NCBI GenBank assembly: GCA_040879765.1
Contig: JBBDJQ010000001.1
Coordinates: 348,023 to 412,022, forward strand
DNA length: 64,000 bases
Reading direction: 5' to 3'
DNA from: Candidatus Pacearchaeota archaeon
GTDB lineage: Archaea > Nanobdellota > Nanobdellia > Pacearchaeales > GW2011-AR1
Shown: positions 1,983 to 64,000 of the stretch, piece by piece
How the letters are laid out: each line of letters starts with the position of its first letter
Numbering within the stretch: position 1 is the stretch's first letter
Translations under genes and position numbers: made by a program
The notes under the pieces: model-generated
Databases searched by the model: none
What the model saw: only the letters and a program-made list of their open reading frames with translations
What the model was told of the DNA's origin: nothing

Positions 1983-2795
1983 TTAATGTTCCCAAGGAAA
2001 GAATCCAAGAACAGAATTATTTAATTCGTCTCTAAGTTGAGGCCATTGAGGTAAATGAGAATCCATCAAATTGAAAAATTTATCTGTATGATTTTTTTCT
2101 TTAAAATGAATCATTTCATGTAATAAAACATATTCTAAGCATCTAAGTGGATTTTTTGCAAGTTCCAAATTCAACCATATTCTTTTATCTTCAGCGTTAC
2201 AAGTTCCCCATTTTGTTTTCATCTTTTTAATAATAACTTCATTAACTTTAACTCCTGAATTCTTTTCCCATCTTTCTATAAGTTCAGGAATCTGTTTTTT
2301 AAGTTCTGCTCGATAAAAACTTTCAAGCATTTTCTCTTTTTGTTCTCTTGACATATTAGGCTTAACATACAAATCAATATGAGTTTTCTTTTTTATTTCA
2401 ACTCTAGGCTTATTTTCTGTATCAATTACATTCAATCTATACCTATTGCCTAAAAAATAATGACTTTCTCCAGAAATAAATTCTCTTTTAGTTTGTCTTT
2501 TTTGTCTCTCAAATTTCGCTTTTTGTTTTTTAATCCATGGAATTTTAGAAATTATGAATAATCTAATAGATTCATCATTCATCTTTTTTGGAGCTGCGAC
2601 CCTTATTCTACCTTGAGGAGGATAAACTCCCAAGTGCATATTTTTGATATTCTTCTTTACAGTTTGCACTTGTAAACCGCAAATCTGCATATTATCAAGA
2701 CTGGTACTCACTTTGAGCCTCCGCAATTTTGAAGACTTTCTCAACATTTTCGTCATCATCAATATCATATTTTGAAAGAGCTTTCTTAATCCCAA
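1983..2795 (-). CDS. M48/DUF45 (YgjP/WLM-like) zinc metallohydrolase
   Basis: HEMIH (HExxH) motif and the 'WI.KQ' N-terminal region typical of DUF45. An alternative ATG at 2690 would give a 4-nt overlap with the hsdR stop. This family is often found adjacent to hsdR. Confidence 0.75.
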   Translation of the reverse strand: MGLRKLFQNMILMMTKMLRKSSKLRRLKVSTSLDNMQICGLQVQTVKKNIKNMHLGVYPPQGRIRVAAPKKMNDESIRLFIISKIPWIKKQKAKFERQKRQTKREFISGESHYFLGNRYRLNVIDTENKPRVEIKKKTHIDLYVKPNMSREQKEKMLESFYRAELKKQIPELIERWEKNSGVKVNEVIIKKMKTKWGTCNAEDKRIWLNLELAKNPLRCLEYVLLHEMIHFKEKNHTDKFFNLMDSHLPQWPQLRDELNNSVLGFFPWEH

Positions 2796-5772: not shown

Positions 5773-6983
5773 TTTAATCTTATCCTGCCTGTTAATAATT
5801 GTTGCATCATACCTTCTTTAATCATTTGGTATTTATTACGCTTTTGTTCTAATTGTTCGATTTCAGAGTCCATATCTGAGAGGATTGAAGCGATTGCGGA
5901 TTGTTCCTTTTGATCATTTGGGATTTTTAACTCAAATTCTTGAAATGTGGGTAACCTCAAAGAATCAACTGTTGCTTTAACAGAGTTTTTTGTTGCCTGT
6001 TTATGAAAATCATAAAGCATATAGTAATAAATGAATTTCCCAGAAATTTCTCTGCCAAAATTACTTATTTTATACACTCTTTGATGATAGTCGAATTTTC
6101 CATTAATATAATGGAATATGCTACCAACTCCACCTTCTCCAGGCACAAGTATTGCTTCACCATCAAATGAATAAGAATTTATTCTCTCGACATTTTGTGA
6201 CCTTACAAAGAAAGGATATGAAGCTTCTTCAATTTTATCTTCATTATTTTTCTTGCCAGTTTTAATGTCAGTAAAATCTCCCAACTTCTTCTCTTCCCAT
6301 TCTCCACTAAACCCTGGCAGTCTTTTCTTTCCTGTCAAGAGTTCCTGCATTGCTCCTTTTTTGATGTCTTTCTTTTTTGAGATGAGTTTGTTGAGGTGTT
6401 GGATTAATTCATCAGTTTGTGAGAGGGCGGTTGCGATTGCTGATTGTTCTTGTTTTGACTTTGGGAGGGCAACTTTTGTTTTTCTGAATACATCCATCCC
6501 TACAAGATTTTTCATAGCTCCTCCTTGAGTGCTATCAATTATTTTATCCTGAAATTTTTCCCAATCAAAATATTGAAAGAAATAATCTTTATCAATAATG
6601 GACGAGTTTAACCTAATAATCAAAAGAGCTTGATTAATTATTCCTTGTGGGGCATTTTTAGGTATTAAATATATTCTTCCAATCGTGCCTGAACAACTCA
6701 CTATAAAATCTCCAGATTTGACTTCAAATCTTTTTAATTCCATAAATTTATTTTGATCAATATAATAGTCTCCAAGTTCTATGTCTCTGTAAATTGCATT
6801 TTTTTGTTCATAAACTTTTAGACCTCTTTTTACAAAAAACTCTTTTTTAAGTGAACCACCAAAAGGTCCTCTAATTAATCCATCAGATTCTGTTAGTTCT
6901 GAAAGAGTACCATCTTCCCAATCTTCAGGTATAACTCCTATTTCAGTTTGCTTGTATCCTTGTGGAATTGTTTCAGTCGTCAT
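5763..6983 (-). CDS. hsdS: Type I R-M specificity subunit (HsdS)
   Basis: 406 aa with two target-recognition domains. The conserved repeats AMQELLTGKKRL and MMQQLLTGRIRL are typical of HsdS. Confidence 0.85.
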   Translation of the reverse strand: MTTETIPQGYKQTEIGVIPEDWEDGTLSELTESDGLIRGPFGGSLKKEFFVKRGLKVYEQKNAIYRDIELGDYYIDQNKFMELKRFEVKSGDFIVSCSGTIGRIYLIPKNAPQGIINQALLIIRLNSSIIDKDYFFQYFDWEKFQDKIIDSTQGGAMKNLVGMDVFRKTKVALPKSKQEQSAIATALSQTDELIQHLNKLISKKKDIKKGAMQELLTGKKRLPGFSGEWEEKKLGDFTDIKTGKKNNEDKIEEASYPFFVRSQNVERINSYSFDGEAILVPGEGGVGSIFHYINGKFDYHQRVYKISNFGREISGKFIYYYMLYDFHKQATKNSVKATVDSLRLPTFQEFELKIPNDQKEQSAIASILSDMDSEIEQLEQKRNKYQMIKEGMMQQLLTGRIRLKWK

Positions 6984-6984
6984 A

Positions 6985-8631
6985 TTAGTCTACCTTCGTT
7001 AAAAAGACAAATAACAAATTGCCTTCTTTGTATTTAATTGGATGGATATTAACTAATATTTTATCTTGTTTTAACTCGTTATTAGCAGTTGTTTCAATTG
7101 TTACTGCCATATCACTTTTAAAATTGTAAACTGGATTTATAGTCTGGTCATCTTCAATCCCGTAAATAATACAATGTCTTGTTAACTTATCGACATCAAT
7201 ATATTTCTTAATAGTAGGAACTAAAGTATTCTTAGCAAATTCTGTGGGTTTAGGATTGTAAGCACTCGCTGATTTAAATTCTAAAATATCCTCATTAGTA
7301 GTCAATCCATCTGTTTTTTGAAATTCATATTCAATATCTGGCAGAAACGAATCTAATAGATATTCAAAAATATAATTAAAATGTTTGGATTTTATACAAG
7401 ATTGCATTAGATGGCAAAAAGAAACTTTTAGACTTAGTTTTAATTTTGCACTTTGAGCATCTTGGATTTTATTGATGAAATTAGATGTTAATTCCTCGAA
7501 GTTATGACATAAATTCAGATTATTATATATAATTAAATTTCCTATTCTAAAACTCTCCTTGCTTGCATCTTCTCCTGCATGATATACTTCGTATCTTGTA
7601 TTATTGAATATTGCATCGTTGATTTTTATTAATAAAGTCTGCTTTGGTTTTATGACTGGAGAATATTTAGTTGAAAATAAGATGTTATACCTTGGATGTG
7701 TTTTCCTTATTATTACCTCTTCTTCGTTTCCTTTAAATTCAGAAACAGAGTTTTCATCTTCAACATAACGATACTTATCATCTTTCATAAATTTACTTAA
7801 TCCTTCGGTGCTTGGAATCAATAAGTTAAATCTCTTCTTGTACTCATCTAGTTTTTCTGTTTCAGTTACAAAAAAATCATAAAATTTAGGATAATCTAAG
7901 GCTTTTCCATAAACGAATACTTTTGAGATTGTCCCTTCCTCTTTTCCTAAAATAATTTTTCCAGAGTGACTTATTTTACGCTCATCAATCATGCTTTTAA
8001 GTTGATCATTATCCAAGTTAATCTGCACAGGAATACTAATTGCATCTAATTCTATGTTTAAACAAATATTGCCTAAAGATTCCCAACCAATGTCTTCAAT
8101 CTCAATGCCCCAGAATTTAGCATGACCTTTGCTGAATTTTCTGCTTTGCTCATAAGCCAATAATTTTAAAATACCCTCTTCCTTTTTGATTATATCTGCT
8201 CGCACTATATTTTTTGAATGTAGTATTGTTTGTACAGATACAACTTTATCTTCAACCTCTGCCAGAGAAGGTCCTTTTTTACAATGAACAATAACAAACA
8301 CATCATTTAATTGTAAAACTGCAAGAATGAACTTTTCTTTCTCCCTTGATCTTGAATTTAAGACAGCCCTATATTCATTTATTATATCTTCAACTTCTGA
8401 TTCTTTCTTATCTGGATAGCTTGAAAAAACTAGGTTTAACCATTTCTTAACAGATGGATTTTCGGGAGATAAATCTTGTAGATTTCGTTTTTTCCCAATT
8501 ATTTTATCCTCCAGACTTCTGATTAATTCTCTAATACTTTTATCTTCTTCCACTTCATTAGAAAGTAAAATATCCTCTGCTTCTTTCTCTGGTTGATTTG
8601 CAAGTTTTTCCCAAAAGTATATCTTTGCCAT
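6985..8631 (-). CDS. Uncharacterised 548-aa protein embedded in the type I R-M operon (no P-loop, no recognised nuclease motif)
   Basis: The ATG at 8631 lies 1 nt after the hsdM stop. Its own stop lies 1 nt before the hsdS ATG. I recognise no signature domain. The ORF track extends the ORF to a TTG at 8643. Confidence 0.6.
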   Translation of the reverse strand: MAKIYFWEKLANQPEKEAEDILLSNEVEEDKSIRELIRSLEDKIIGKKRNLQDLSPENPSVKKWLNLVFSSYPDKKESEVEDIINEYRAVLNSRSREKEKFILAVLQLNDVFVIVHCKKGPSLAEVEDKVVSVQTILHSKNIVRADIIKKEEGILKLLAYEQSRKFSKGHAKFWGIEIEDIGWESLGNICLNIELDAISIPVQINLDNDQLKSMIDERKISHSGKIILGKEEGTISKVFVYGKALDYPKFYDFFVTETEKLDEYKKRFNLLIPSTEGLSKFMKDDKYRYVEDENSVSEFKGNEEEVIIRKTHPRYNILFSTKYSPVIKPKQTLLIKINDAIFNNTRYEVYHAGEDASKESFRIGNLIIYNNLNLCHNFEELTSNFINKIQDAQSAKLKLSLKVSFCHLMQSCIKSKHFNYIFEYLLDSFLPDIEYEFQKTDGLTTNEDILEFKSASAYNPKPTEFAKNTLVPTIKKYIDVDKLTRHCIIYGIEDDQTINPVYNFKSDMAVTIETTANNELKQDKILVNIHPIKYKEGNLLFVFLTKVD

Positions 8632-8632
8632 C

Positions 8633-11041
8633 CTACAACTCAAACCCCATATTCTTCAAATGACCTTCGACCTTCTTGCTCAATTCTTCAACTTCTTTTG
8701 TGAGTTCAGGAAGTGGTGCTTCATATCTTTCAGCTAACTCCTTAATTCTACCAGCTAATTTCTGCGAAATTCGTTCCATCTCGCTTTTAACTGCATTCCG
8801 AAGTGTTGTCATCCATTTATCATCAACAACTAAAACCTTAATCTCTTCTTCAGTCAAAGTATTATATTTCTTTAATAACTGCCTATCAAGAGTTTCTTCT
8901 GCTTCTTTGATTTGTTTCTTCAATACACTTTCCTTCTCAATCAAATCAAGATATTCTTGAAGAATTTTTAATTCGTCCAAATACTCAGAATCTCCTTTAA
9001 TTTCTTTGATTCTTTTGTTCAAATCGTTTTTAGTGATTTTTCCTGCATCACTTCGAGCATCAGCAAATAAGTCATCTTCTCCTGAATGTTCTTCTTCCAA
9101 ACTTTCTTTATTCTGAGAAACTTCTTCAAGCTCATTTTTTAGATTATCAATATTTTCTTGTTCAGCAGAAAAATATCTTTTTATAACAATCTCTTTAGGA
9201 ATTAAATCACAATCCCAGCCTGTTTCTTTTCCTTTCTTATTTTTTAGAATATTAATTTCAACTTTCCAACCACCAAAGACAACCATATAAGCATCATCCT
9301 GCATGGTTTCAGCCCAATAATTCATCAAATGCTGATAAACTTCATACTTATCAATCAAATCAAGTTTAGCAAACGAATTCAAAATATCTTCTGATATAGT
9401 AAAAATTAATTCTTTAGGTTTATCTGCTATCTTCAAAGCTTTCAAAACTTTAACATTTCTGTTCTCCCATTCATCAAATACTAACTCGATTTTTTTAGAA
9501 TATGCAATAAACTCAGGATGAGCAAATATGGAAGATTTAACCTTTTCATGTTCTATTTTAATCTTTACATATCCATCTCTTGAAGTAGCAAACAGTTCAT
9601 TTTGAAGAGTAGGATACACTTTCCAATATTCTCCTAAAGCTTCAACATCTTTTTTAGGAATGTCTCCTTTCAAATGCGCGTCAATATCTTGCATGTCTTC
9701 TTCTTCTTGGCTGTCAATATATCGAGGAATATTTAGATTATAATCGTTTTTCTCATTGCATATTTCAGTATGTGCAACCATCCTTGAATATTTTGGAAGT
9801 TCAAGCTGTTTGTTAAATACATCAACAATCTTATGAATATCTCTTGAACGTAAACGGTTTTTATTTCCGTCTTTATAGTATCCTTTGCTTGCATCTATCA
9901 TAAAAATACCTTTTCTATTTTCAGCATTTTCTTTATCTATAATTATTATACAAGCAGGAATTCCAGTTCCAAAAAACAAGTTAGCAGGAAGTCCAATAAT
10001 TCCTTTAATGTATCCTCTTTTGATTATGTTCTTTCTTATCTGTCCTTCAGCATTTCCTCTAAATAATACGCCATGCGGCAATATTACTGCTGCTTTTCCA
10101 GTACTCTTAAGAGACCTAATCATATGCAACAAGAAAGCATAATCCCCATTTTTCTTTGGAGGAATTCCAAAACCTTCAAATCTTCCGAATTCATCATTAT
10201 CTGCATCTAATCCATTACTCCAATTTTTACTGGAAAATGGAGGATTAGCTACTAAATAATCAAATGTCTTTAAGCCACCATCTGGATTTTTAAAATGAGG
10301 AGCAGAAAGAGTATTTCCCCTCCAAATATCAGCAGTAGGATTATTATGTAAAATCATATTCATCTTAGCCAAACCACGAGTTGCAACATCATTTTCTTGA
10401 CCGTAAATAGTAATTCCATGTTTTGTTTCAGAAGCTGCTTTCAACAATAATGAACCTGAACCACAAGTTGGATCATAAACTGTTTTTGCCTGACTATCTG
10501 CTTTTTCTATTTCAATAACTTTTGCCATGATTCTTGAAACTTCAGCAGGAGTATAAAATTGACCTTTACTTTTTCCTGATTCTGTTGCAAAATGTCTCAT
10601 TAGATATTCATAAGCATCTCCAAGCAAATCATCATCTTCTGCTCTATTCTTACTAAAATCTAAAGCAGGATTTTCAAAAATTGCAACAAGATTTGAAAGC
10701 CTATTCTGCATATCTTTTCCACTTCCAAGTTTGTCTGAATCATTAAAATCTGCAACATCAATAACTCCTTTTAATTCATTAGATTCTGCAAGTTTAGAAA
10801 TAATTTTATTCATTCCATCGCCGATTTCAGCTTTTCCTTTCAACTTTATCATATCATCAAAGCTTCCACCATTAGGAACATCAATTAAAAATTCTTGATC
10901 GGATTTTGCTTTATCAGAAACATATTTTACGAATAAAAGAACTAAGACATAATCTTTATACTGTGAGGCATCCATACCACCTCTTAATTCATCGCAACTT
11001 TTCCAAAGAGAGCTGTATAATTCACTTTTTTTTACTGCCAT
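8633..11041 (-). CDS. hsdM: Type I R-M N6-adenine DNA methyltransferase (HsdM) with ~300-aa C-terminal coiled-coil extension
   Basis: Motif I DPTCGSGSLL and motif IV NPPF. 802 aa. The C-terminal third is charged and coiled-coil-like. Confidence 0.9.
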   Translation of the reverse strand: MAVKKSELYSSLWKSCDELRGGMDASQYKDYVLVLLFVKYVSDKAKSDQEFLIDVPNGGSFDDMIKLKGKAEIGDGMNKIISKLAESNELKGVIDVADFNDSDKLGSGKDMQNRLSNLVAIFENPALDFSKNRAEDDDLLGDAYEYLMRHFATESGKSKGQFYTPAEVSRIMAKVIEIEKADSQAKTVYDPTCGSGSLLLKAASETKHGITIYGQENDVATRGLAKMNMILHNNPTADIWRGNTLSAPHFKNPDGGLKTFDYLVANPPFSSKNWSNGLDADNDEFGRFEGFGIPPKKNGDYAFLLHMIRSLKSTGKAAVILPHGVLFRGNAEGQIRKNIIKRGYIKGIIGLPANLFFGTGIPACIIIIDKENAENRKGIFMIDASKGYYKDGNKNRLRSRDIHKIVDVFNKQLELPKYSRMVAHTEICNEKNDYNLNIPRYIDSQEEEDMQDIDAHLKGDIPKKDVEALGEYWKVYPTLQNELFATSRDGYVKIKIEHEKVKSSIFAHPEFIAYSKKIELVFDEWENRNVKVLKALKIADKPKELIFTISEDILNSFAKLDLIDKYEVYQHLMNYWAETMQDDAYMVVFGGWKVEINILKNKKGKETGWDCDLIPKEIVIKRYFSAEQENIDNLKNELEEVSQNKESLEEEHSGEDDLFADARSDAGKITKNDLNKRIKEIKGDSEYLDELKILQEYLDLIEKESVLKKQIKEAEETLDRQLLKKYNTLTEEEIKVLVVDDKWMTTLRNAVKSEMERISQKLAGRIKELAERYEAPLPELTKEVEELSKKVEGHLKNMGFEL

Positions 11042-16229: not shown

Positions 16230-16363
16230 GCCTCGGTCGCATAGTGGTTATTGCACCGGATTGCTAAGCAGAACTGTCCAGCGGGGTTCCGCACCTCCAG
16301 CGACCAACTGCAGTGAAGATCCGGGCCCTTCGGGGCTCGCAGGTTCGAATCCTGCCCGAGGCG
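16230..16363 (+). tRNA. tRNA-Ser (anticodon GCT) with an intron of about 52 nt at 37/38
   Basis: Acceptor GCCTCGG/CCGAGGC, anticodon stem CCGGA/TCCGG flanking the intron, long variable arm GCCC-TTCG-GGGC, T-arm GCAGG-TTCGAAT-CCTGC, discriminator G. Confidence 0.65.
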
Positions 16364-56849: not shown

Positions 56850-56922
56850 CGCCCCGACCGGGATTCGAACCCGGGTCACGGCCGTGAAAGGGCCGCATTC
56901 TTGGCCTCTGAACTATCGGGGC
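56850..56922 (-). tRNA. tRNA-Glu (anticodon TTC)
   Basis: Reverse complement gives GCCCCGA..CGGCC-CTTTCAC-GGCCG..CCGGG-TTCGAAT-CCCGG-TCGGGGC-G. No intron. Confidence 0.7.
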
Positions 56923-57244: not shown

Positions 57245-57374
57245 AATTTTTATAATGAGCCCACACGGATTTGAACCGTGGACCTCTGGCTCTCTTAGAG
57301 TCTAGGAAGACCTCCCAGAGAAATACAATTCTTTGAATTGCACTCATATAAGACCAGCGCTCTGACCAGGCTGA
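57245..57374 (-). tRNA. tRNA-Ile (anticodon TAT) with an intron of about 54 nt
   Basis: Reverse complement gives GAGCCCA..GCTC/GAGC D-arm, anticodon stem CTGGT/GCCAG, loop CTTATA plus intron, T-arm CACGG-TTCAAAT-CCGTG, acceptor TGGGCTC, discriminator A. Confidence 0.55.
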
Positions 57375-57427
57375 GCTATGGGCTCTCGATTATAAATTAT
57401 TTGTTTAATATTTAAAGTTTCTTGAAT

Positions 57428-58036
57428 CTAGAATTCAAAGACAAGCTGTTCAAATTCACTTGCAGAAGATTCTGAATCTTGATTTCTAACCCTTTTAGAT
57501 AAGTCTTTCAACCATTTAATTCTATCTTCTTCTATAACCTTCTCTAGCTCTAGTTTTCCAAGATTTTCAGCATAGTTGAATTCAACCCAATAACCATCAA
57601 TTTCATATTTTATTGCAAAAAAACCAGGCTTTACAAATGACTTCTCAACCTCAATAGACAAATCACCAAACTTATTTTCAAGTGCTTTTCTTTCTTCATA
57701 AGTTAAATCTGGGCTAAAGGATGATCTCTTTTGTATTGTGGAGGTTTCTTCTTTATGTAATGTTGTTTCTTGAGCTTCTAAAAATTCTTCTGCATGAGAG
57801 GATGAAATTGCATTACTGGTTATTCCTCCAAAAGCATAGGTTCCGTATAATGTCCCAATTATGGCAAACATCCCTAAAAAAATTAATAGGAATTTTAGAT
57901 TCTTAAAATTTAAACTTAAACCCAGACCTTTTGAACCCTTATATTCAGAAATAACTTTCCCATCAACTCTTTTACTATGGTATATATAGGGCCCGTAAAT
58001 TTTACCATCTCTTTTTATGTATTTTTTGTAGGCCAT
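57428..58036 (-). CDS. Hypothetical membrane-anchored protein
   Basis: 202 aa. One TM helix. Confidence 0.4.
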   Translation of the reverse strand: MAYKKYIKRDGKIYGPYIYHSKRVDGKVISEYKGSKGLGLSLNFKNLKFLLIFLGMFAIIGTLYGTYAFGGITSNAISSSHAEEFLEAQETTLHKEETSTIQKRSSFSPDLTYEERKALENKFGDLSIEVEKSFVKPGFFAIKYEIDGYWVEFNYAENLGKLELEKVIEEDRIKWLKDLSKRVRNQDSESSASEFEQLVFEF

Positions 58037-58048
58037 TTAAATTTAGTT

Positions 58049-58243
58049 TTATTTTTTTGTTGCAGGAAATAAAACTTTGAGCATCTTTCTTAAGTTATCA
58101 TCTAAAAAACAGACGTCTTCAAGAGCAATCTTTTCAATAAGTTTTGTTAAAGCGCCTCTGCCGTAAAAACCGGTCTCATTTGCTTTTTTCAAAAGCTTTT
58201 TTTTCATTTCTGCATCAAGATATAACTTAACTGGTTCTTTCAT
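58049..58243 (-). CDS. Small RHH-like (CopG/antitoxin-like) protein
   Basis: VKLYLDAEMKKKLLKKANETG, a strand-helix pattern. Confidence 0.4.
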   Translation of the reverse strand: MKEPVKLYLDAEMKKKLLKKANETGFYGRGALTKLIEKIALEDVCFLDDNLRKMLKVLFPATKK

Positions 58244-58459: not shown

Positions 58460-59878
58460 ATGTCTGGAGGTGTATGGTATCTTTCTTTTAGAAATAAAAA
58501 AATAGAATTTAGTAAATTTAATTCTGGTAAAAAAAATTCTAAGAAACCAAAGACAGAAACAAAAAAATCAAGAAAAAATCTCACAGCGAATTTATTTTTA
58601 GGATTCTTTTTTACAATCTTTTTTTCTAGTGTTGTTTTGGCCGTTGCAATAACTGATGATTTGCATTTAAATATTCAAACAACTGATTCAGGTGGAGGAA
58701 TTGTTACAGGGAGTTTTGATTTTGCTTTCAATATCTCAACCGCAGAGAGTTGTTCGGTTGCAAATGTAATTTATTCAAATACTACCTCTCTCACCACAGA
58801 TACGAGAGGGGTCATAAGTTACTATCTACCCAATGTGACTTTGGATTACGATGAGCAATATTGGCTTTGTTATTACAGGGATGGAATTTTGCAAGATGCT
58901 TCTAAGATTTCAAGGACGCCTTATGCTTTCACAGCACAGAATATTACTTTGAGTGGTGTTGATGTAGATACTAATTTTGATGCCACAGGATTTAATGTTA
59001 CGGCAGATAGTGGTTTTTTTATTTTTTTAGGAAACCTTGCAAATAGGGTTACAAATATTTTTTCAAGTGGATTAAATGTTGTTGGAGATGCAAATATAAA
59101 TGGGACCCTTTATGTTAATGGGCAAAATGTTTCAACTGGGATAGGTTATGTACTCAATGATTCTTTCCTATTTAATACAGGAGACACAGGAACAGGGGAA
59201 TTTATTTTTGGAGATATTAATATTTCTGAATCTACTGGAAGGATTGGTGTAGGCACTGCAGCCACTGAAGTTTTGGATGTTGCAGGAAATGTTCAGGCAA
59301 CAGGTGCTTTCCAAACTACTAATAATGAGGTAATTTATGCCGGGAGTACGCTTGGCCAGGTTCGATTTTCTAGACCGGTTTCAACAGATGATATTGCATT
59401 GTATGCAGGGGGTCTTGAGAGAATAAGGATAAACGGAGGCAATGGATTTTTTGGAATAAACACAACAATTCCACAAACATTGCTTCATGTAGCAGGAAAT
59501 GCCTTATTTAATGGAACAATAAACACTGCTTCAAACAAAATAATAAATCTTGCAGATGGGACTTCCGCACAGGATGCTGTGACTTTATTTCAGCTTCAAG
59601 AAGTTAATGCAACGGCAAATCTTACAGGTGGAGGAACTCAAAACAGGATTGCGAGATTCCTAAGCGCAGGATTTTTGGGGGATTCTTCAATAACAGATGA
59701 TGGGATAGTTGTTTCTGTAAATAATGATGATTTGCATATTAATACTACAAGTGGAAATGTTGGAGTCAATACAAACAATCCAGGGTCAAAATTAGAGGTT
59801 GATGGTACATTCGAGGCAAAAAATAACGGAGGTTCAATGAGGGTTGATTCGAATGGAGATATTAAAGTTGGAATTTAA
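58460..59878 (+). CDS. Signal-anchored repetitive surface protein (sequon-rich), paralogous module to the downstream giant ORF
   Basis: Basic N-terminus plus one TM helix. Many N-x-S/T sequons. The segment NKIINLADGTSAQDAVTLFQLQ is shared with 59880+. Confidence 0.6.
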   Translation: MSGGVWYLSFRNKKIEFSKFNSGKKNSKKPKTETKKSRKNLTANLFLGFFFTIFFSSVVLAVAITDDLHLNIQTTDSGGGIVTGSFDFAFNISTAESCSVANVIYSNTTSLTTDTRGVISYYLPNVTLDYDEQYWLCYYRDGILQDASKISRTPYAFTAQNITLSGVDVDTNFDATGFNVTADSGFFIFLGNLANRVTNIFSSGLNVVGDANINGTLYVNGQNVSTGIGYVLNDSFLFNTGDTGTGEFIFGDINISESTGRIGVGTAATEVLDVAGNVQATGAFQTTNNEVIYAGSTLGQVRFSRPVSTDDIALYAGGLERIRINGGNGFFGINTTIPQTLLHVAGNALFNGTINTASNKIINLADGTSAQDAVTLFQLQEVNATANLTGGGTQNRIARFLSAGFLGDSSITDDGIVVSVNNDDLHINTTSGNVGVNTNNPGSKLEVDGTFEAKNNGGSMRVDSNGDIKVGI

Positions 59879-59879
59879 A

Positions 59880-62800
59880 ATGAGAAATAAGAATATTAAT
59901 AATAAAAGAGAAATTGGTGGCTTTAGGGATTCAGCTTTTTCGTTTATTTTTTATTTGATGATTTTTGCTGTGCTAATGATTCCTCCAATAGATGCTCAAA
60001 GTTTTATTGTTCATAATCAAAGTAATGAGTCTCAAAACTACTTTACTGTTAATGGGAGCACTGGCGATACAGAAGTCTTAGAAGATTTGCAGGTTGATGG
60101 AGATGTAACAACAGATGGGAATGTAACTGCTTCTTGGTTTAGGGGGGCATTCAATTGGATTGTTGGAGTTCCATCACAGATTTATTTAACATTTAATGGA
60201 ACTCAACTGGATTTTGATGAGGGCCAACTAAACACAACAATTGACTCAAGAATTTCTGAAGGGCAGGGAGATTTGCATGTAAATATGTCTGACTGGTGGA
60301 ATACAGGAGATAGAGGTACTTTAAGAAACATCTCACAAATCCAAGGTTCTTGGATTACAAATGATTTAGCATGGATAAACTTTACAGACGGAGATGGACG
60401 TTATGTTCTTTTGACAGAAGAATCTAATTTAAATGTGAATAGAAGTGAATGGTGGAGAACTGCTGAAGGAGATTTGAATAATGTTGAAGACATCCTTGGT
60501 TCTTGGCTGACAAATGATTTGGCATGGATAAACTTTACTGAGGGAGATGGAAGATATCTTCTGATTACAGATGAATCCAATTTAAATGTGAATAGTTCTG
60601 ATTTTTGGAGGACTAATGAAGGGATAAAGGAGAATGTTGAAGATATTCTTGGAAGTGAGATAACTAATAATCTAGCATGGATAAATTTTACTCAGGCAGA
60701 CCCAAGATATGTCAATGTTGATGGAGATACTATGACTGGGGATTTGGTTATTGATGCGGATCTAACAGTTGGAACAAATCTTTTATTTGCAAACAGCTCA
60801 GGAAGTCTTGTTGGAATAGGAACAGTAACTCCACAAAACAAGTTAAATGTTGTTGGAGATATAAATGCAACAGAAACAGTTTATGCAGGAGAGTTTTCAG
60901 GAGCAATAAACTGGACTTTCTTACAAAACTATCCTAATGGTTGTCCTGCAGGTCAGGCAGTTCAGGTGATTGGAGATACTTTAACATGTATTGATATAAA
61001 TCCTGTGAATGTTACAAACGGAACTGGGACTGTAGATCAGATTCCAAGATGGATAACAGAGACGACGTTAGGAAATTCAATAATAAAACAGAGCGGAACT
61101 ACAATTGTTGTTGAAGGAGATCTTAATGTTACGGATTTTGTTGCTGCTGGAGATGTAATCGTTCTTGGAAGAGTTAATATTAGCCAGGATTTGCAGGTTG
61201 ATGGAGATGTAACAACAGATGGGAATGTAACTGCTTCTTGGTTTAGGGGGGCATTCAATTGGATTGTTGGAGTTCCATCACAGATTTATTTAACATTTAA
61301 TGGAACTCAACTGGATTTTGATGAGGGCCAACTAAACACAACAATTGACTCAAGAATTTCTGAAGGGCAGGGAGATTTGCATGTAAATATGTCTGATTAT
61401 TGGAACACCGCGGATAGAGGGGCTTTGAGAAATGTTTCGCAAATTCTTGGAAGTTGGATTACAAATGATTTGAGTTGGATAAATTTCACTCAGGCTGATC
61501 CTAGGTATGTGGAAATTACAGGAGATACAATGACTGGGAATTTAGATATTAATGCGAATTTAACTGTAGGAACAAGTGTTTTATTTGTTGATTCTAATGG
61601 AAATGTTGTTGGTATCGGGACTGCAACACCTCAAAATACACTGAATGTCGTTGGTGATGCAAACATTACGGATAATTTGTATGGAGGAATTATTTTTGAG
61701 GACGGGGTTTCATTGATTGACAAGTATGTTCAGTTGACAAGGACTTTAGAGTTTTCGGGAACTTCTAATCAGATTTCAGTAACCCCAACAGGTCCACAGG
61801 ATTTGTCTGATAACAGAACATGGACATTCTCACTTCCTCAAGACATAAATACAACAAGTAGTCCTGAATTTGTGGGATTAAATGTTACTGGAAATGCAAG
61901 TGTTGGAAACAGATTGGATATTGGGGGGGAGTGGTCTGATGGAGGAGTTTCAATTGTTGATGGAGAAGTTTTTGCACAGACGCTTTTTGTTTACAACATT
62001 ACAAGCCTCAATGTTAACACTTTGAATATAAACGGATCTCTTCTTCCCGCAGAAGGATTTTCTGAAACATTTGATATTGGAGCAGACAGTAGGAGATGGA
62101 GAGATTTATTTGTTAGTAGAAATGCAGATGTTGGAGGAAATTTGAATGTTGATGGCGATGCAAATATAACTGGAACTCTCTACTATGGAACTCTTGATGG
62201 TGAAGCAAACCTCAATGTAAACAGCTCTGATTTCTGGGATGGGTTGGATACTCCGGCAGACATTAATGCAGGAGACTTGACAGATGACAACACATATTTG
62301 GAAGTAGCTGGTGATACAGGAACAGGTAATTTTGTTTTTAATCAGAATCTTACAGTTGATACTAACACGTTGTTTGTTGATTCAAGCTCAAATAAAGTTG
62401 GAATCGGGACGGCGAGTCCGGCATATAATTTAGATGTTGCAGGCACAGGACGATTTTCAGGAGATGTAAGATTAGATGCAGGAAAGAATCTCAAATTTTA
62501 TGACCATGATGCAACTTTTCCAACAGCAACAGGGGGTTTTATTTGGGATTTGAATAATGACAATGCAAAGATTTATGCACAACAACCAGCAAGCGACCAG
62601 ATTGATTTTGTGTTCAAAATTGCAGATAACGTCGGTACGACAGATAGATTTGTATATTGGATTGATAGTTATACTGGAGAAACTGATGACGCTTACCCTC
62701 TTTATATGGATGGAACAAAAGCAGTATTTAACTACCCAACAGTTTTTGGAACAGGGGCATCAAAAAATATAGATTTTTATTTAATGGGATTTAATAAAAG

Positions 62801-64000
62801 TTCCTTATCTGATACATATTTTTTTGGTGATGCATCAACAGGAAACGTCGGTATTGGGACGACGGCGCCACAAACAAAACTGCATGTAGCAGGAAACGCA
62901 ATCTTCAACGGGACGATAAACACTGATTCAAATAAAATAATAAACATTGCAAACGGAACCTCAAGTCAGGATGCCGTGGCGCTTTCACAACTTCAGACGG
63001 TTAATACCTCCGCAAATTTCCCAAGAGGAGACATTGTTCAGGGGACTGGATTGAGTTTATCAGGGACTTTAACAGAAAGGCTTGTTGATTCCGGAAGTGT
63101 TACATTCAATCTGGCAAACACTGCAGTAACTCCAGGAACTTATGGAGGAAATATTCAGGTAGGAACTTTCACAGTTGACCAGCAGGGAAGACTAACTTCA
63201 GCATCAAATGTTACAATAAGAGATGCTTCGGCGTCTGTGAGCGGAGTTGTCTCAACAGGAACTCAAACCTTTGCAGGAGCTAAGACATTTAATAATAACT
63301 TAGTTGCAGGTCAGAATCTTACAGTTGATACTAACACGTTGTTTGTTGATTCAAGCTCAAATAAAGTTGGCATCGGGACGGCGAGTCCTAACACATTATT
63401 AACAGTTGGAACGACGGGGTCAAATACTGATTTTGGCGCAATTGCTTCTTTCTATAGTTCAAGCTCCAACAATAATACTGTTAAAATATTAGCCCCAGCT
63501 AATCAAGCAGGAAGCGGTCCTCACTTACACTTAATGGAGAATAATCCAAATCTCTATGGTTATGATTTATGGTATGATACGGGAGCAGATACTCTTGAGT
63601 TAGACCGTTATCAAAACAGCGTTAAAACTCATGTTTTAACTGTTCAGCCAGACGGCGATGTGGGGATAGGAACAACGACACCCCAAAATCCTTTAAATGT
63701 AATAGGCGACATTAATGCTACAGGAACAGTTTATTCCGGAGGAAGTGCTGTTTTGACTTCATTCACTGAATCGGATCCTATATGGTCTGCTAACTATTCT
63801 TCAAGAACAGGAACAGGAAATGTTGTTTATTCAAACTCTCCAACTATAACATCTCCTACGATTTCAACTTCAATAAACCTGCCTTCAGGTGCTGTAGATG
63901 CTGCCGGGGAAATTTCAGATGACATTATAACAAATGCTCATTTTACTCATTCAACAGACTGGGGAGATGTTTCCACTGATGCTTCGGGAAATGTTCAGAT
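59880..64000 (+). CDS. Giant secreted repetitive surface protein (more than 1370 aa, runs off the window); candidate adhesin / fibre-like protein
   Basis: Open reading frame from the ATG at 59880 to the window end with no stop. Missing from the ORF track because it has no stop codon. Signal peptide present. N-x-S/T sequons are extremely dense. VGIGT..P...L.V.G repeats and WINFT repeats recur. Perfect internal DNA repeats are present. Confidence 0.65.
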   Translation, partial: MRNKNINNKREIGGFRDSAFSFIFYLMIFAVLMIPPIDAQSFIVHNQSNESQNYFTVNGSTGDTEVLEDLQVDGDVTTDGNVTASWFRGAFNWIVGVPSQIYLTFNGTQLDFDEGQLNTTIDSRISEGQGDLHVNMSDWWNTGDRGTLRNISQIQGSWITNDLAWINFTDGDGRYVLLTEESNLNVNRSEWWRTAEGDLNNVEDILGSWLTNDLAWINFTEGDGRYLLITDESNLNVNSSDFWRTNEGIKENVEDILGSEITNNLAWINFTQADPRYVNVDGDTMTGDLVIDADLTVGTNLLFANSSGSLVGIGTVTPQNKLNVVGDINATETVYAGEFSGAINWTFLQNYPNGCPAGQAVQVIGDTLTCIDINPVNVTNGTGTVDQIPRWITETTLGNSIIKQSGTTIVVEGDLNVTDFVAAGDVIVLGRVNISQDLQVDGDVTTDGNVTASWFRGAFNWIVGVPSQIYLTFNGTQLDFDEGQLNTTIDSRISEGQGDLHVNMSDYWNTADRGALRNVSQILGSWITNDLSWINFTQADPRYVEITGDTMTGNLDINANLTVGTSVLFVDSNGNVVGIGTATPQNTLNVVGDANITDNLYGGIIFEDGVSLIDKYVQLTRTLEFSGTSNQISVTPTGPQDLSDNRTWTFSLPQDINTTSSPEFVGLNVTGNASVGNRLDIGGEWSDGGVSIVDGEVFAQTLFVYNITSLNVNTLNINGSLLPAEGFSETFDIGADSRRWRDLFVSRNADVGGNLNVDGDANITGTLYYGTLDGEANLNVNSSDFWDGLDTPADINAGDLTDDNTYLEVAGDTGTGNFVFNQNLTVDTNTLFVDSSSNKVGIGTASPAYNLDVAGTGRFSGDVRLDAGKNLKFYDHDATFPTATGGFIWDLNNDNAKIYAQQPASDQIDFVFKIADNVGTTDRFVYWIDSYTGETDDAYPLYMDGTKAVFNYPTVFGTGASKNIDFYLMGFNKSSLSDTYFFGDASTGNVGIGTTAPQTKLHVAGNAIFNGTINTDSNKIINIANGTSSQDAVALSQLQTVNTSANFPRGDIVQGTGLSLSGTLTERLVDSGSVTFNLANTAVTPGTYGGNIQVGTFTVDQQGRLTSASNVTIRDASASVSGVVSTGTQTFAGAKTFNNNLVAGQNLTVDTNTLFVDSSSNKVGIGTASPNTLLTVGTTGSNTDFGAIASFYSSSSNNNTVKILAPANQAGSGPHLHLMENNPNLYGYDLWYDTGADTLELDRYQNSVKTHVLTVQPDGDVGIGTTTPQNPLNVIGDINATGTVYSGGSAVLTSFTESDPIWSANYSSRTGTGNVVYSNSPTITSPTISTSINLPSGAVDAAGEISDDIITNAHFTHSTDWGDVSTDASGNVQ

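What the first reader, a model, noticed from the sequence alone, without database searches (positions are those of the whole stretch)
58460..64000. Giant sequon-rich repetitive surface protein(s) with tail-fibre-like motifs; candidate host-attachment adhesin
Two adjacent secreted proteins are present: 472 aa, and one of more than 1370 aa that runs off the window and is absent from the ORF track only because it has no stop. Both are packed with N-x-S/T sequons (NGT, NVT, NTT, NIS, NFT...). Both carry repeated VGIGT(A/T).P...L.V.G modules and threefold WI(T)NDLAWINFT(D/E)GDGRY repeats. Both contain the segment NKIIN(L/I)A(D/N)GTS.QDAV.L.QLQ.VN, which resembles the conserved (P)xxxDAVNKxQLD motif that opens many phage tail-fibre/tail-spike and other beta-helical fibre proteins. 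For a DPANN-like episymbiont such giant, glycosylated, rapidly evolving fibres are prime candidates for host-cell attachment. They could equally be S-layer-associated or viral-receptor proteins.
Basis: partly seen in the sequence, partly recalled or inferred. Interest (0 to 1): 0.6.

Follow-up and report, generated by a model that had tools for sequence, protein, structure and literature searches.

The report
Phage-tail-fibre-like surface fibres of Pacearchaeota
Two adjacent genes of a tiny symbiotic archaeon (Pacearchaeota, DPANN) encode long, probably sugar-coated surface fibres built from the same kind of modules as phage tail fibres and the prey-recognition fibres of the predatory bacterium Bdellovibrio, which makes them good but untested candidates for how this archaeon grips other cells.

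Summary
ORF A (58460-59878, 472 aa) and ORF B (59880 to the window end, at least 1373 aa, no stop) are adjacent, repetitive and secreted or membrane-anchored. Both are enriched in N-x-S/T sequons. One detail is wrong: the WINFT repeat occurs only in ORF B (3 tandem copies plus 1), not in both.

The genome is Candidatus Pacearchaeota and the context is core chromosome, not a virus.

ORF A has a basic cytoplasmic tail, one membrane helix, and a confidently modelled N-terminal beta-sandwich domain. This domain has no Pfam family but defines 634 protein clusters. It always sits at the N-terminus of proteins 130-5130 aa long.

The shaft carries VGxGTxxPxxxLxVxG loops and a YadA-stalk-like neck. Its closest solved structures are the Bdellovibrio MAT (mosaic adhesive trimer) fibres. 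Its closest viral models are S74-type phage tail fibres.

Segments of ORF B match different relatives at different positions, which is mosaic evolution.

Best reading: N-terminally anchored, N-glycosylated, probably trimeric adhesive fibres, an archaeal counterpart of MAT fibres. Trimer state, glycosylation, the tip of ORF B and any role in host binding are untested. S-layer and provirus readings are disfavoured.

The parts
58460..59878 (+). ORF A, 472-aa fibre protein. Order of parts: cytoplasmic tail, membrane helix, conserved N-terminal domain, short shaft with neck motif. No recognisable tip domain.
   Evidence: ORF coordinates. It is 100% identical to Pacearchaeota WDZ77_02650. AF2 model has mean pLDDT 70.9. 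Foldseek top hits are Bd3182, Bd2133, Bd1334 and Bd2439 MAT fibres.
58460..58579 (+). N-terminal extension of ORF A (aa 1-40): MSGGVWYLSFRNKKIEFSKF followed by a lysine-rich linker. It is predicted to be cytoplasmic.
   Evidence: There is no alternative start in codons 2-59. The same MSGSVWY(L/I)S..KKKIEFKKYP motif is seen in about 20 of 201 family members. AF2 models a beta-hairpin at residues 6-19.
58580..58648 (+). Hydrophobic segment of ORF A (about aa 41-63). It is either a signal-anchor or a signal-peptide core ending ..LAVA|I.
   Evidence: AF2 models a helix at 39-59. The sequence is shown. Family members with short N-termini have a classical signal peptide ending ..SA(A/E)xI at the same place.
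58622..58984 (+). Conserved N-terminal beta-sandwich domain (ORF A aa 55-175). It has two conserved cysteines (C98, C137) and conserved sequons at N91, N107 and N161.
59450..59806 (+). ORF A shaft segment. It contains the two VGxxT..P...L.V.G loop modules (59450-59497 and 59759-59806), with the neck motif lying between them.
   Evidence: Motif positions. phmmer aligns these loops with Bd3182 loops in PDB 8OJN. pLDDT is 81-94 over residues 290-350.
59534..59608 (+). ORF A neck motif NKIINLADGTSAQDAVTLFQLQEVN (aa 359-383).
   Evidence: Pfam YadA_stalk PF05662, E 2.8e-6, 28.0 bits against a cut-off of 28.4. The family is precomputed for the identical protein P0083. pLDDT is below 50 in the monomer model.
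59880..64000 (+). ORF B, a fibre protein of at least 1373 aa. It has its own signal peptide (aa 1-41) and is open at the window end. It lacks the ORF A-type N-terminal domain.
   Evidence: Reading frame. hmmsearch with the N-domain profile finds nothing at E<=10. PHROGs tail-fibre families hit at 1e-14. The ORF B-type N-terminus is shared with P0002 and P0005.
60345..60691 (+). Tandem 153-nt (51-aa) repeat that carries the WITNDLAWINFT..D.RY motif. Motif copies start at 60351, 60504 and 60657. A fourth copy at 61455 lies in the duplicated block.
   Evidence: TRF gives period 153, 2.3 copies, 78% matches. Motif positions. The AF2 model of this region is unreliable, pLDDT below 50.
60084..60383 (+). 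First copy of a 300-nt intragenic duplication. The second copy is at 61188-61487 and is 91% identical.
   Evidence: Repeat family D1. At protein level, aa 62-150 matches 430-518 at 90%. The Logan contig L001 ends inside this copy, at 60113.
60810..63707 (+). Span holding the five strict VGIGT..P...L.V.G modules of ORF B: 60810-60857, 61608-61655, 62397-62444, 62847-62894 and 63660-63707.
   Evidence: Motif positions. The modules match the MAT loop consensus V-G-G/N-pi-x-x-P-x-x-x-L quoted from PMC10769870. phmmer aligns them to Bd3182 in 8OJN.
62424..62864 (+). Globular-looking module (about aa 849-995) shared at 81% nucleotide identity with a fibre gene on a contig binned as Bacteroidota (L002).
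   Evidence: blastn gives 81% over 442 nt and blastp 73% over 183 aa. L002 also carries a T9SS sorting-domain ORF.
62931..63005 (+). ORF B neck motif NKIINIANGTSSQDAVALSQLQTVN (aa 1018-1042).
   Evidence: Pfam YadA_stalk, E 7.1e-6, 26.7 bits. This segment is 71-75% identical to the same segment of ORF A and P0084, and 64% identical to a Minisyncoccales (CPR) protein.
58049..58243 (-). 64-aa ORF transcribed divergently from ORF A. It is a conserved partner of ORF A-type fibre genes and a possible small regulator (that role is an inference).
   Evidence: It is 82.5% identical to the 63-aa ORF in the same position in Pacearchaeota locus L014. It has no Pfam hit.

Best explanation
ORF A and ORF B are cell-surface fibre proteins of a Pacearchaeota (DPANN) archaeon. 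They are built like phage S74-type tail fibres and Bdellovibrio MAT (mosaic adhesive trimer) fibres.

Shown by the sequence and the searches:
- Each has an N-terminal export or anchor signal.
- ORF A carries a lineage-wide conserved N-terminal beta-sandwich domain.
- The shafts are made of repeated VGxGTxxPxxxLxVxG loop modules plus a YadA-stalk-like neck.
- The family is extremely variable in length and is mosaic.
- N-glycosylation sequons are enriched in a directional way.

Inferred:
- The chains form intertwined homotrimers.
- The N-terminus stays at the membrane and envelope, and the variable distal part projects outward.
- The sequons are glycosylated by the archaeal oligosaccharyltransferase.
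- Recombination of modules among paralogues, genomes and even domains of life diversifies binding.
- The fibres bind surface structures of other cells, most plausibly the host of this episymbiont.

The distal tip of ORF B lies beyond the window and is unknown.
For: Organism and context:
- Pacearchaeota identity.
- Chromosomal setting: gyrase, aIF2-gamma, aIF5B, aminoacyl-tRNA synthetases, Kae1, type I restriction-modification, DsbA-like and Fic genes.
- Relatives sit next to ThrRS or toxin-antitoxin genes, with no virion genes.

Fold:
- Foldseek against PDB puts Bd3182 on top (E 1.6e-4, 25-28% identity, about 134 columns), followed by Bd2133, Bd1334 and Bd2439.
- BFVD gives 82 hits at E<=1e-3, including tail-fibre-like, S74 and LbR_YadA-like proteins.

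Sequence:
- PHROGs tail-fibre families.
- YadA_stalk at threshold.
- phmmer aligns the loop motif to 8OJN. That motif equals the MAT consensus in PMC10769870.

Architecture parallel to MAT:
- A conserved beta-rich N-terminal domain follows the signal peptide directly (paper quotes).
- Tips vary. Of 47 N-domain relatives, 5 have Peptidase_S74, 2 the phage Collar domain, 1 an FGE-sulfatase (C-type-lectin-like) domain and 1 GH43.
- One Pacearchaeota member of 5212 aa is named 'tail fiber domain-containing protein' by NCBI.

Mosaicism:
- ORF B segments match different proteins at different offsets at 50-75% identity.

Sequons:
- Observed/expected is 1.7-1.8 here, with a family median of 1.91.
- The two bacterially labelled relatives are near 1.
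- N-x-S/T occurs 6541 times against 3937 for the mirror motif.
- Sequons are conserved in the N-domain.
Against: - No experiment or multimer model shows trimerisation. The neck and much of the shaft have pLDDT below 50 in the monomer model, and the ORF B model is poor.
- TM-scores to MAT and phage fibres are low (0.1-0.4), and sequence E-values to 8OJN are weak (0.04-0.14).
- Homology of the N-terminal domain to the MAT N-terminal domain could not be tested. ORF B lacks that domain altogether.
- No oligosaccharyltransferase gene lies in the window.
- ORF A has no recognisable tip domain, and the tip of ORF B is missing.
- Nothing links the fibres to a host. The host of this lineage is unknown.
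Confidence: 0.6

Rival explanations
1. The genes belong to an integrated or adjacent archaeal virus, or to a tailocin-like particle, and encode its tail fibres or receptor-binding proteins.
For: Similarity to phage tail fibres at sequence and fold level. The genes lie just downstream of two tRNA genes. The far side of the locus is not visible.
Against: - Both proteins start with export or anchor signals, which virion fibres lack.
- Upstream genes are cellular.
- Two scans of IMG/VR, using short exact peptide patterns and therefore sensitive only to close relatives, found no relative.
- The phage collection gave one 60-aa match.
- Orthologous loci in other Pacearchaeota are flanked by ThrRS and TyrRS-type synthetases, or by toxin-antitoxin and GTPase genes, with no virion genes within 10 kb.
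- The N-domain family is found on contigs of 280-480 kb.
Confidence: 0.06
2. They are structural envelope proteins: S-layer subunits, or S-layer-anchored spikes with a housekeeping role rather than adhesins.
Against: - Lengths among N-domain relatives run from 130 to 5130 aa.
- The module order is mosaic.
- Several paralogues occur per locus.
- Tips are variable and phage-like.
- The shaft is a fibre fold, not a lattice-forming one.
Confidence: 0.1
3. They are surface fibres, but with a target other than a host cell. Possibilities are self-aggregation or biofilm formation, binding of particles or polysaccharides (some relatives carry a glycoside hydrolase or LamG), or decoys that soak up viruses.
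For: Relatives carry GH43, LamG and lectin-like tips. Similar modules occur in free-living bacteria such as Planctomycetes, Ignavibacteria and Niveispirillum. MAT-type fibres exist in non-predatory bacteria according to PMC10769870.
Against: Nothing direct. The enrichment of the N-domain family in DPANN-labelled genomes and the analogy with Bdellovibrio favour cell-cell recognition, but they do not exclude these roles.
Confidence: 0.22

Closest known systems
Bdellovibrio bacteriovorus MAT (mosaic adhesive trimer) fibres, e.g. Bd3182, Bd2133, Bd2439 (Caulton et al. 2024, PMC10769870)
   Same: - Order of parts: signal peptide, conserved beta-rich N-terminal domain, long shaft, variable tip.
- The V-G-G/N-pi-x-x-P-x-x-x-L loop motif.
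- Both S74 and non-S74 tips occur within the family.
- Mosaic module swapping.
- Several paralogues per genome.
- The organism lives on other cells.
- These are the best solved-structure matches to the ORF A model.
   Different: - Archaeal, with no outer membrane. ORF A has a membrane helix and a cytoplasmic tail.
- The N-terminal domain is a lineage-specific family with no shown homology to the MAT N-domain.
- Strong enrichment of N-glycosylation sequons.
- ORF B lacks the N-domain.
- Trimer state and ligand are not shown.
Phage tail fibres and tailspikes with a C-terminal Peptidase_S74 intramolecular chaperone (K1F endosialidase, T5 pb1 class)
   Same: Shaft modules and fold class. Some Pacearchaeota and Aenigmatarchaeota relatives end in Peptidase_S74 and are named 'tail fiber domain-containing protein'.
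   Different: These are cellular genes with export signals, not virion genes. No S74 domain is seen in ORF A or in the visible part of ORF B.
Trimeric autotransporter adhesins (YadA, BadA, Hia): the neck and stalk segment, Pfam YadA_stalk PF05662
   Same: The NKIINxAxGTSxQDAVxxxQL segment matches the start of the YadA_stalk profile at threshold. The same Pfam family is found in 5 of 47 N-domain relatives, best E 4e-17. A TAA-like protein has been noted in a nanohaloarchaeon (PMC10266531).
   Different: No C-terminal beta-barrel translocator is possible or present in archaea. Anchoring is N-terminal, so polarity is opposite to that of TAAs. No long coiled-coil stalk is evident.
Giant surface proteins of other DPANN archaea (nanohaloarchaeal SPEARE-type proteins; LamG-domain proteins)
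   Same: Large secreted proteins of DPANN episymbionts that have been proposed to mediate host contact.
   Different: SPEARE-type proteins are described as Ig-like, beta-propeller and VirB4-like ATPase assemblies, not tail-fibre or MAT-like shafts. No similarity was detected here.

Membership tests
MAT (mosaic adhesive trimer) fibre superfamily | N-terminal signal peptide | tested here: met
   Both proteins start with a basic then hydrophobic N-terminus. AF2 models a helix at ORF A 39-59. No dedicated signal-peptide predictor was available.
MAT (mosaic adhesive trimer) fibre superfamily | Conserved beta-rich domain of about 130 aa directly after the signal peptide, homologous among members | tested here: inconclusive
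   ORF A has such a domain: aa 55-175, beta-sandwich, pLDDT above 90, found in 634 clusters. No Bdellovibrio N-domain sequence or structure was available for comparison. ORF B lacks the domain.
MAT (mosaic adhesive trimer) fibre superfamily | Shaft with the V-G-G/N-pi-x-x-P-x-x-x-L capping-loop motif and a beta-helical fold like Bd3182 | tested here: met
MAT (mosaic adhesive trimer) fibre superfamily | Trimerisation along the whole fibre | not testable with these tools
   Only monomer AF2 was available. The low pLDDT of the neck and much of the shaft is compatible with a need for partner chains but proves nothing.
MAT (mosaic adhesive trimer) fibre superfamily | Variable C-terminal adhesive tip (S74, TNF-like, C-type lectin, beta-sandwich) | tested here: inconclusive
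   This holds at family level: S74, Collar, FGE-sulfatase, C1q, BclA_C and LamG occur in relatives. ORF A ends without a recognisable tip, and the tip of ORF B lies outside the window.
Phage S74 tail fibre / tailspike | C-terminal Peptidase_S74 intramolecular chaperone with the SDxxxK motif | tested here: not met
   No PF13884 hit in ORF A or in the visible 1373 aa of ORF B. It is present in 5 of 47 relatives. The C-terminus of ORF B is unknown.
Phage S74 tail fibre / tailspike | Encoded in a virus genome next to virion genes | tested here: not met
   Core chromosomal neighbours. No relative found in IMG/VR by the exact-pattern scans. Related loci have no virion genes.
Trimeric autotransporter adhesin (type Vc secretion) | C-terminal 12-stranded beta-barrel membrane anchor (YadA_anchor) | tested here: not met
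   No YadA_anchor hit. An archaeon has no outer membrane. Anchoring is N-terminal.
Trimeric autotransporter adhesin (type Vc secretion) | Neck / stalk motif (Pfam YadA_stalk) | tested here: inconclusive
   28.0 and 26.7 bits against a gathering score of 28.4. The hit is precomputed as present for the identical protein P0083 under a newer Pfam version.
Archaeal S-layer glycoprotein | Single conserved abundant lattice-forming protein with little variation in length or module order | tested here: not met
   Lengths run from 130 to 5130 aa. Relatives are mosaic. Several paralogues sit in one locus.

The most novel reading that the evidence does not exclude
Pacearchaeota and related DPANN archaea possess their own large superfamily of N-glycosylated, trimeric, tail-fibre-like adhesins. 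It is defined by a lineage-specific N-terminal anchor domain that is absent from Pfam and, in a subset, by a conserved cytoplasmic MSGSVWYLS...KKY extension. These fibres would be the host-recognition organelles of these episymbionts, an archaeal analogue of Bdellovibrio MAT fibres. They would diversify by swapping modules with phages, CPR bacteria and even Bacteroidota, as suggested by the 81% nucleotide identity to L002.
Probability: 0.35. Interest if true: 0.75.

Novelty: new variant of a known kind. Interest (0 to 1): 0.52.

Why it matters
How DPANN archaea such as Pacearchaeota find and hold on to their hosts is unknown, and for this lineage the host itself is unknown. The fibre family described here offers three concrete handles:

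- a conserved anchor domain that can be used to find every member in a genome;
- variable tips that can be expressed and screened against glycans or candidate host envelopes, as was done for Bdellovibrio Bd2439;
- conserved sequons that can be tested by glycoproteomics.

It also extends the phage-tail-fibre / MAT building plan to the archaeal domain. Finally, it shows that such modules move between archaea, bacteria and viruses.

Tried and rejected
1. Extending ORF B.
- The source contig is not in genome contigs.
- The look-up of encoding contigs returned only a 2.8-kb Logan contig that ends inside the 300-nt repeat.
- The homology tool appears to return only proteins of about 0.55-1.75 times the query length. 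I therefore queried ORF B concatenated three times, which timed out.
- ORF B concatenated twice found no 100% match among proteins of 1511-4412 aa.
- So the C-terminus stays unknown. The contig may well end in this gene. This is an inference from the locus-tag number and from relatives L012 and L013, which also break at fibre genes.

2. AF2 of ORF B aa 41-450 had mean pLDDT 52, with the WINFT repeats below 50. It was not used for fold search.

3. The afdb50 fold library was unavailable, so the N-domain could not be compared with AlphaFold models of the Bdellovibrio N-domains.

4. Provirus idea: rejected on context and on the scans.

5. Inversion switch.
- A perfect 19-nt inverted repeat (58068-58086 and 59990-60008) brackets ORF A and the first 37 codons of ORF B. 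It is the longest inverted repeat in the window.
- About 1 in 40 random windows has one.
- It is absent from three related loci, and no recombinase is nearby.
- It is treated as probably chance.

6. ORF A and ORF B as one gene split by a frameshift: rejected. ORF B has its own signal peptide, shared with P0002 and P0005. In L014, by contrast, the fibre region does look fragmented into many ORFs.

7. Literature: no paper links MAT fibres or Peptidase_S74 with DPANN or archaea. One paper mentions a TAA-like protein in a nanohaloarchaeon.


Full report
**What is in the sequence**

ORF A runs from 58460 to 59878 on the + strand and is 472 aa. One base after its stop codon, an ATG at 59880 opens a frame that stays open to the last base of the window. 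That frame is ORF B, 1373 aa with no stop.

ORF A begins with a 40-residue, very basic stretch and then a hydrophobic segment. Codons 2-59 contain no alternative start. ORF B begins with a classical basic then hydrophobic signal-peptide-like N-terminus.

Sequon counts for N-x(not P)-S/T:

| Protein | Observed | Expected from shuffles | z | Mirror motif S/T-x-N |
|---|---|---|---|---|
| ORF A | 15 | 8.9 | 2.3 | 9 |
| ORF B | 46 | 25.8 | 4.7 | 30 |

Density is 3.2-3.3 per 100 aa. No other ORF of 150 aa or more in the window exceeds 1.6.

- The VGIGT..P...L.V.G module occurs five times in ORF B and, in looser form, twice in ORF A. It occurs in no other ORF of the window.
- The NKIIN...QDAV...QLQ.VN segment occurs once in each protein.
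- The WINFT repeat is only in ORF B: three tandem 51-residue units plus a fourth copy inside a duplicated block.

At DNA level ORF B contains a 300-nt duplication at 91% identity, a 153-nt tandem repeat and a 93-nt repeat at 91%.

**Whose genes are they**

The window has tRNA genes with introns. It also has gyrase, aIF2-gamma, aIF5B, Kae1, aminoacyl-tRNA synthetases, a type I restriction-modification system, a DsbA-like thioredoxin and a Fic protein.

ORF A is 100% identical to WDZ77_02650 of a Candidatus Pacearchaeota MAG, on a 457-kb contig. The DPANN assignment is therefore confirmed, and the setting is core chromosome.

Three related loci were examined:
- L012 (Pacearchaeota) lies beside ThrRS and a TyrRS/TrpRS-type synthetase.
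- L014 (Pacearchaeota) lies beside the same synthetases and holds a cluster of ten or more fibre-like ORFs or fragments over 11 kb.
- L013 lies beside toxin-antitoxin genes and a GTPase that also occurs in this window.

None of them has virion genes. Two scans of IMG/VR, using short exact peptide patterns, found no relative. The phage collection gave a single 60-residue match to a Roseobacter phage tail fibre.

**Anatomy of ORF A**

The AF2 model, built with an alignment of 44 relatives, shows these parts:
- a small hairpin at residues 6-19;
- a helix at 39-59;
- a beta-sandwich at about 60-150 with pLDDT above 90;
- a poorly modelled linker;
- a beta-rich shaft at 260-350 with pLDDT 72-94;
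- a disordered-looking neck at 365-399.

The N-terminal domain is highly conserved among relatives: 45-68% identity, invariant C137, nearly invariant C98. Its sequons are conserved too: N91 in 17 of 18 sequences, N107 in 12 and N161 in 13. It has no Pfam or NCBIfam family.

A profile of this domain, searched against 1.84 billion representative proteins, gave:
- 634 clusters at E<=1e-3 and 236 at E<=1e-30;
- the domain always at residues about 15-75 from the start;
- host proteins ranging from 130 to 5130 aa.

One 5212-aa member is named 'tail fiber domain-containing protein [Candidatus Pacearchaeota archaeon]'.

Of the relatives that carry a source name, nearly all are labelled Pacearchaeota, Nanoarchaeota, Woesearchaeota or 'archaeon'. 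The exceptions are one labelled Baldrarchaeia and one labelled Bacteroidia on a 2-kb contig.

**What the shaft resembles**

- Pfam gives only YadA_stalk, at the NKIIN motif: 28.0 and 26.7 bits against a cut-off of 28.4.
- PHROGs gives tail-fibre families for ORF B at about 1e-14, and an unnamed family at 4e-26.
- The best sequence match in the PDB is weak (E 0.04-0.14). It aligns the VGxGT..P...LHV.G loops to 8OJN/8ONB/8ONC. These entries are Bd3182(632-922), an S74-type MAT fibre of Bdellovibrio bacteriovorus.
- Foldseek of the ORF A model against the PDB ranks Bd3182 first (E 1.6e-4, 25-28% identity over about 134 columns). It also lists Bd2133, Bd1334 and Bd2439.
- Against predicted viral structures there are 82 hits at E<=1e-3. 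They include 'phage tail fiber-like', 'Peptidase S74 / intramolecular chaperone' and 'LbR_YadA-like' proteins.

TM-scores are low throughout. That is expected when a monomer model of an extended chain is compared with intertwined trimers, but it also limits the strength of this evidence.

The MAT paper gives the loop consensus V-G-G/N-pi-x-x-P-x-x-x-L. [quoted passage not shown] That domain is thought to sit at the cell surface and present variable C-terminal tips: S74, TNF-like, C-type lectin or novel sandwiches.

The Pacearchaeota family shows the same plan. Among 47 N-domain proteins:
- 5 have Peptidase_S74;
- 5 have YadA_stalk;
- 2 have the phage Collar domain;
- 1 has an FGE-sulfatase (C-type-lectin-like) domain;
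- 1 has GH43.

Relatives of ORF B also carry C1q, BclA_C, LamG and YadA_head domains.

**Mosaicism**

Segments of ORF B match different proteins at different positions at 50-75% identity. Examples:
- ORF B 63-289 matches P0001 963-1189.
- ORF B 67-448 matches P0003 183-572.
- ORF B 775-1012 matches P0004 459-680.
- ORF B 986-1045 matches the neck of ORF A and of P0084.

A 442-nt stretch (62424-62864) is 81% identical to a fibre gene on L002. L002 is a 5.9-kb contig binned as Mariniphaga that also carries a T9SS sorting-domain ORF. The neck module is 64% identical to a protein of a CPR bacterium.

Fibre genes sit at contig ends in L012, L013 and the Logan contig L001. This is what repeats and strain variation do to assemblies.

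**Glycosylation inference**

- Across 201 N-domain proteins the median observed/expected sequon ratio is 1.91.
- Other hits have a median of 1.34 (Mann-Whitney p = 2e-11).
- N-x-S/T outnumbers the mirror motif 6541 to 3937.
- Relatives labelled Pacearchaeota or Nanoarchaeota reach 2-3.4.
- Two bacterially labelled relatives, and two labelled Aenigmatarchaeota, are near or below 1.

This directional, lineage-specific enrichment argues for selection for N-glycosylation rather than a composition effect. No oligosaccharyltransferase gene lies in the window, and occupancy is untested.

**Most likely mechanism**

The fibres are exported by the Sec route. ORF A stays in the membrane through its helix, or is cleaved after ..AVA. 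The conserved N-domain sits at the envelope. Three chains wind into a beta-helical shaft punctuated by the VGxGT loops and a TAA-like neck, and the distal end binds a ligand on another cell. Module exchange supplies diversity.

Shown:
- the export signals;
- the domain family;
- the motif and fold similarity;
- the mosaicism;
- the sequon bias.

Inferred:
- trimerisation;
- glycosylation;
- orientation;
- adhesion to a host.

ORF A has no recognisable tip. It may be a short fibre, or a proximal piece that cooperates with ORF B, since the two genes are separated by one base. That second possibility is speculation.

**Rivals**

- A provirus is unlikely, given the export signals, the context and the empty virus scans.
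- A housekeeping S-layer protein is unlikely, given the length range, the paralogy and the mosaicism.
- A non-host target (aggregation, particle or polysaccharide binding, virus decoy) cannot be excluded.

**Novelty**

Large surface proteins of DPANN archaea have long been suspected of mediating host contact. A TAA-like protein has been noted in a nanohaloarchaeon. NCBI already labels a few DPANN relatives as tail-fibre-domain proteins.

I found no paper that links MAT fibres or S74 fibres with archaea.

The specific points here appear undescribed:
- the lineage-wide N-terminal anchor domain;
- the conserved cytoplasmic extension;
- the sequon enrichment;
- the MAT-like plan.

I therefore rate the finding as a new variant of a known kind, of moderate interest.

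Noticed in passing
window 58460-58579; also P0001, P0006, P0012, P0017, P0035, P0084, P0085, P0088-P0091, P0150, P0151 and others: About 20 of 201 N-domain fibre proteins, ORF A among them, share a conserved N-terminal extension ahead of the hydrophobic signal segment: MSGSVWY(L/I)SFSKKKIEFKKYP plus a lysine-rich linker. The rest have an ordinary short signal peptide. It recalls the extended signal peptide region of large bacterial autotransporters, but there is no sequence similarity and its function is unknown.
   Followed up: partly
window 58068-58086 and 59990-60008: A perfect 19-nt inverted repeat brackets ORF A and the first 37 codons of ORF B. One arm lies in the 3' end of the divergent 64-aa ORF, and the two arms are read in different frames. 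It is the longest inverted repeat in the window. About 1 in 40 Markov-random windows has one. It is absent from L012, L013 and L014, and no recombinase gene is nearby.
   Followed up: yes
window 58049-58243 (-); L014 9590-9781 (-): A 64-aa ORF divergent from ORF A is 82.5% identical to a 63-aa ORF in the same position upstream of the ORF A orthologue in another Pacearchaeota genome. It has no Pfam hit. It may be a small regulator of the fibre genes.
   Followed up: partly
L002 1627-2067 against window 62424-62864: A fibre gene on a 5.9-kb contig binned as Mariniphaga (Bacteroidota) shares 442 nt at 81% identity with ORF B. The same contig carries an ORF that passes the T9SS type A sorting-domain model. 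This is either a cross-domain transfer of a fibre module or a chimeric or mis-binned contig.
   Followed up: partly
L014 10001-21641: In Pacearchaeota KatS3mg001 the ORF A orthologue is followed by ten or more fibre-like ORFs. Several start in mid-fibre. Two begin exactly at the NKIIN neck motif and are 71-76% identical to ORF B 1016-1187. They could be frameshifted pieces of long genes, assembly errors or silent cassettes.
   Followed up: partly
window 57256-57385 (-) and 16230-16363 (+): Two tRNA genes of about 130 nt, presumably intron-containing, are found by Rfam but missed by ARAGORN. A third tRNA gene, tRNA-Glu, lies at 56850-56922, just upstream of the fibre locus.
   Followed up: no
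window 57428-58036 (-): A 202-aa ORF with no family hit. It has an N-terminal MAYKKYIKRDGKIYGPYIYHSKRVDGKV motif followed by a membrane helix, loosely reminiscent of the basic N-terminal extension of ORF A.
   Followed up: no
window 2695-11041 (-): A complete type I restriction-modification operon (HsdR, HsdS, HsdM) with an extra 551-aa ORF of unknown family between hsdS and hsdM.
   Followed up: no
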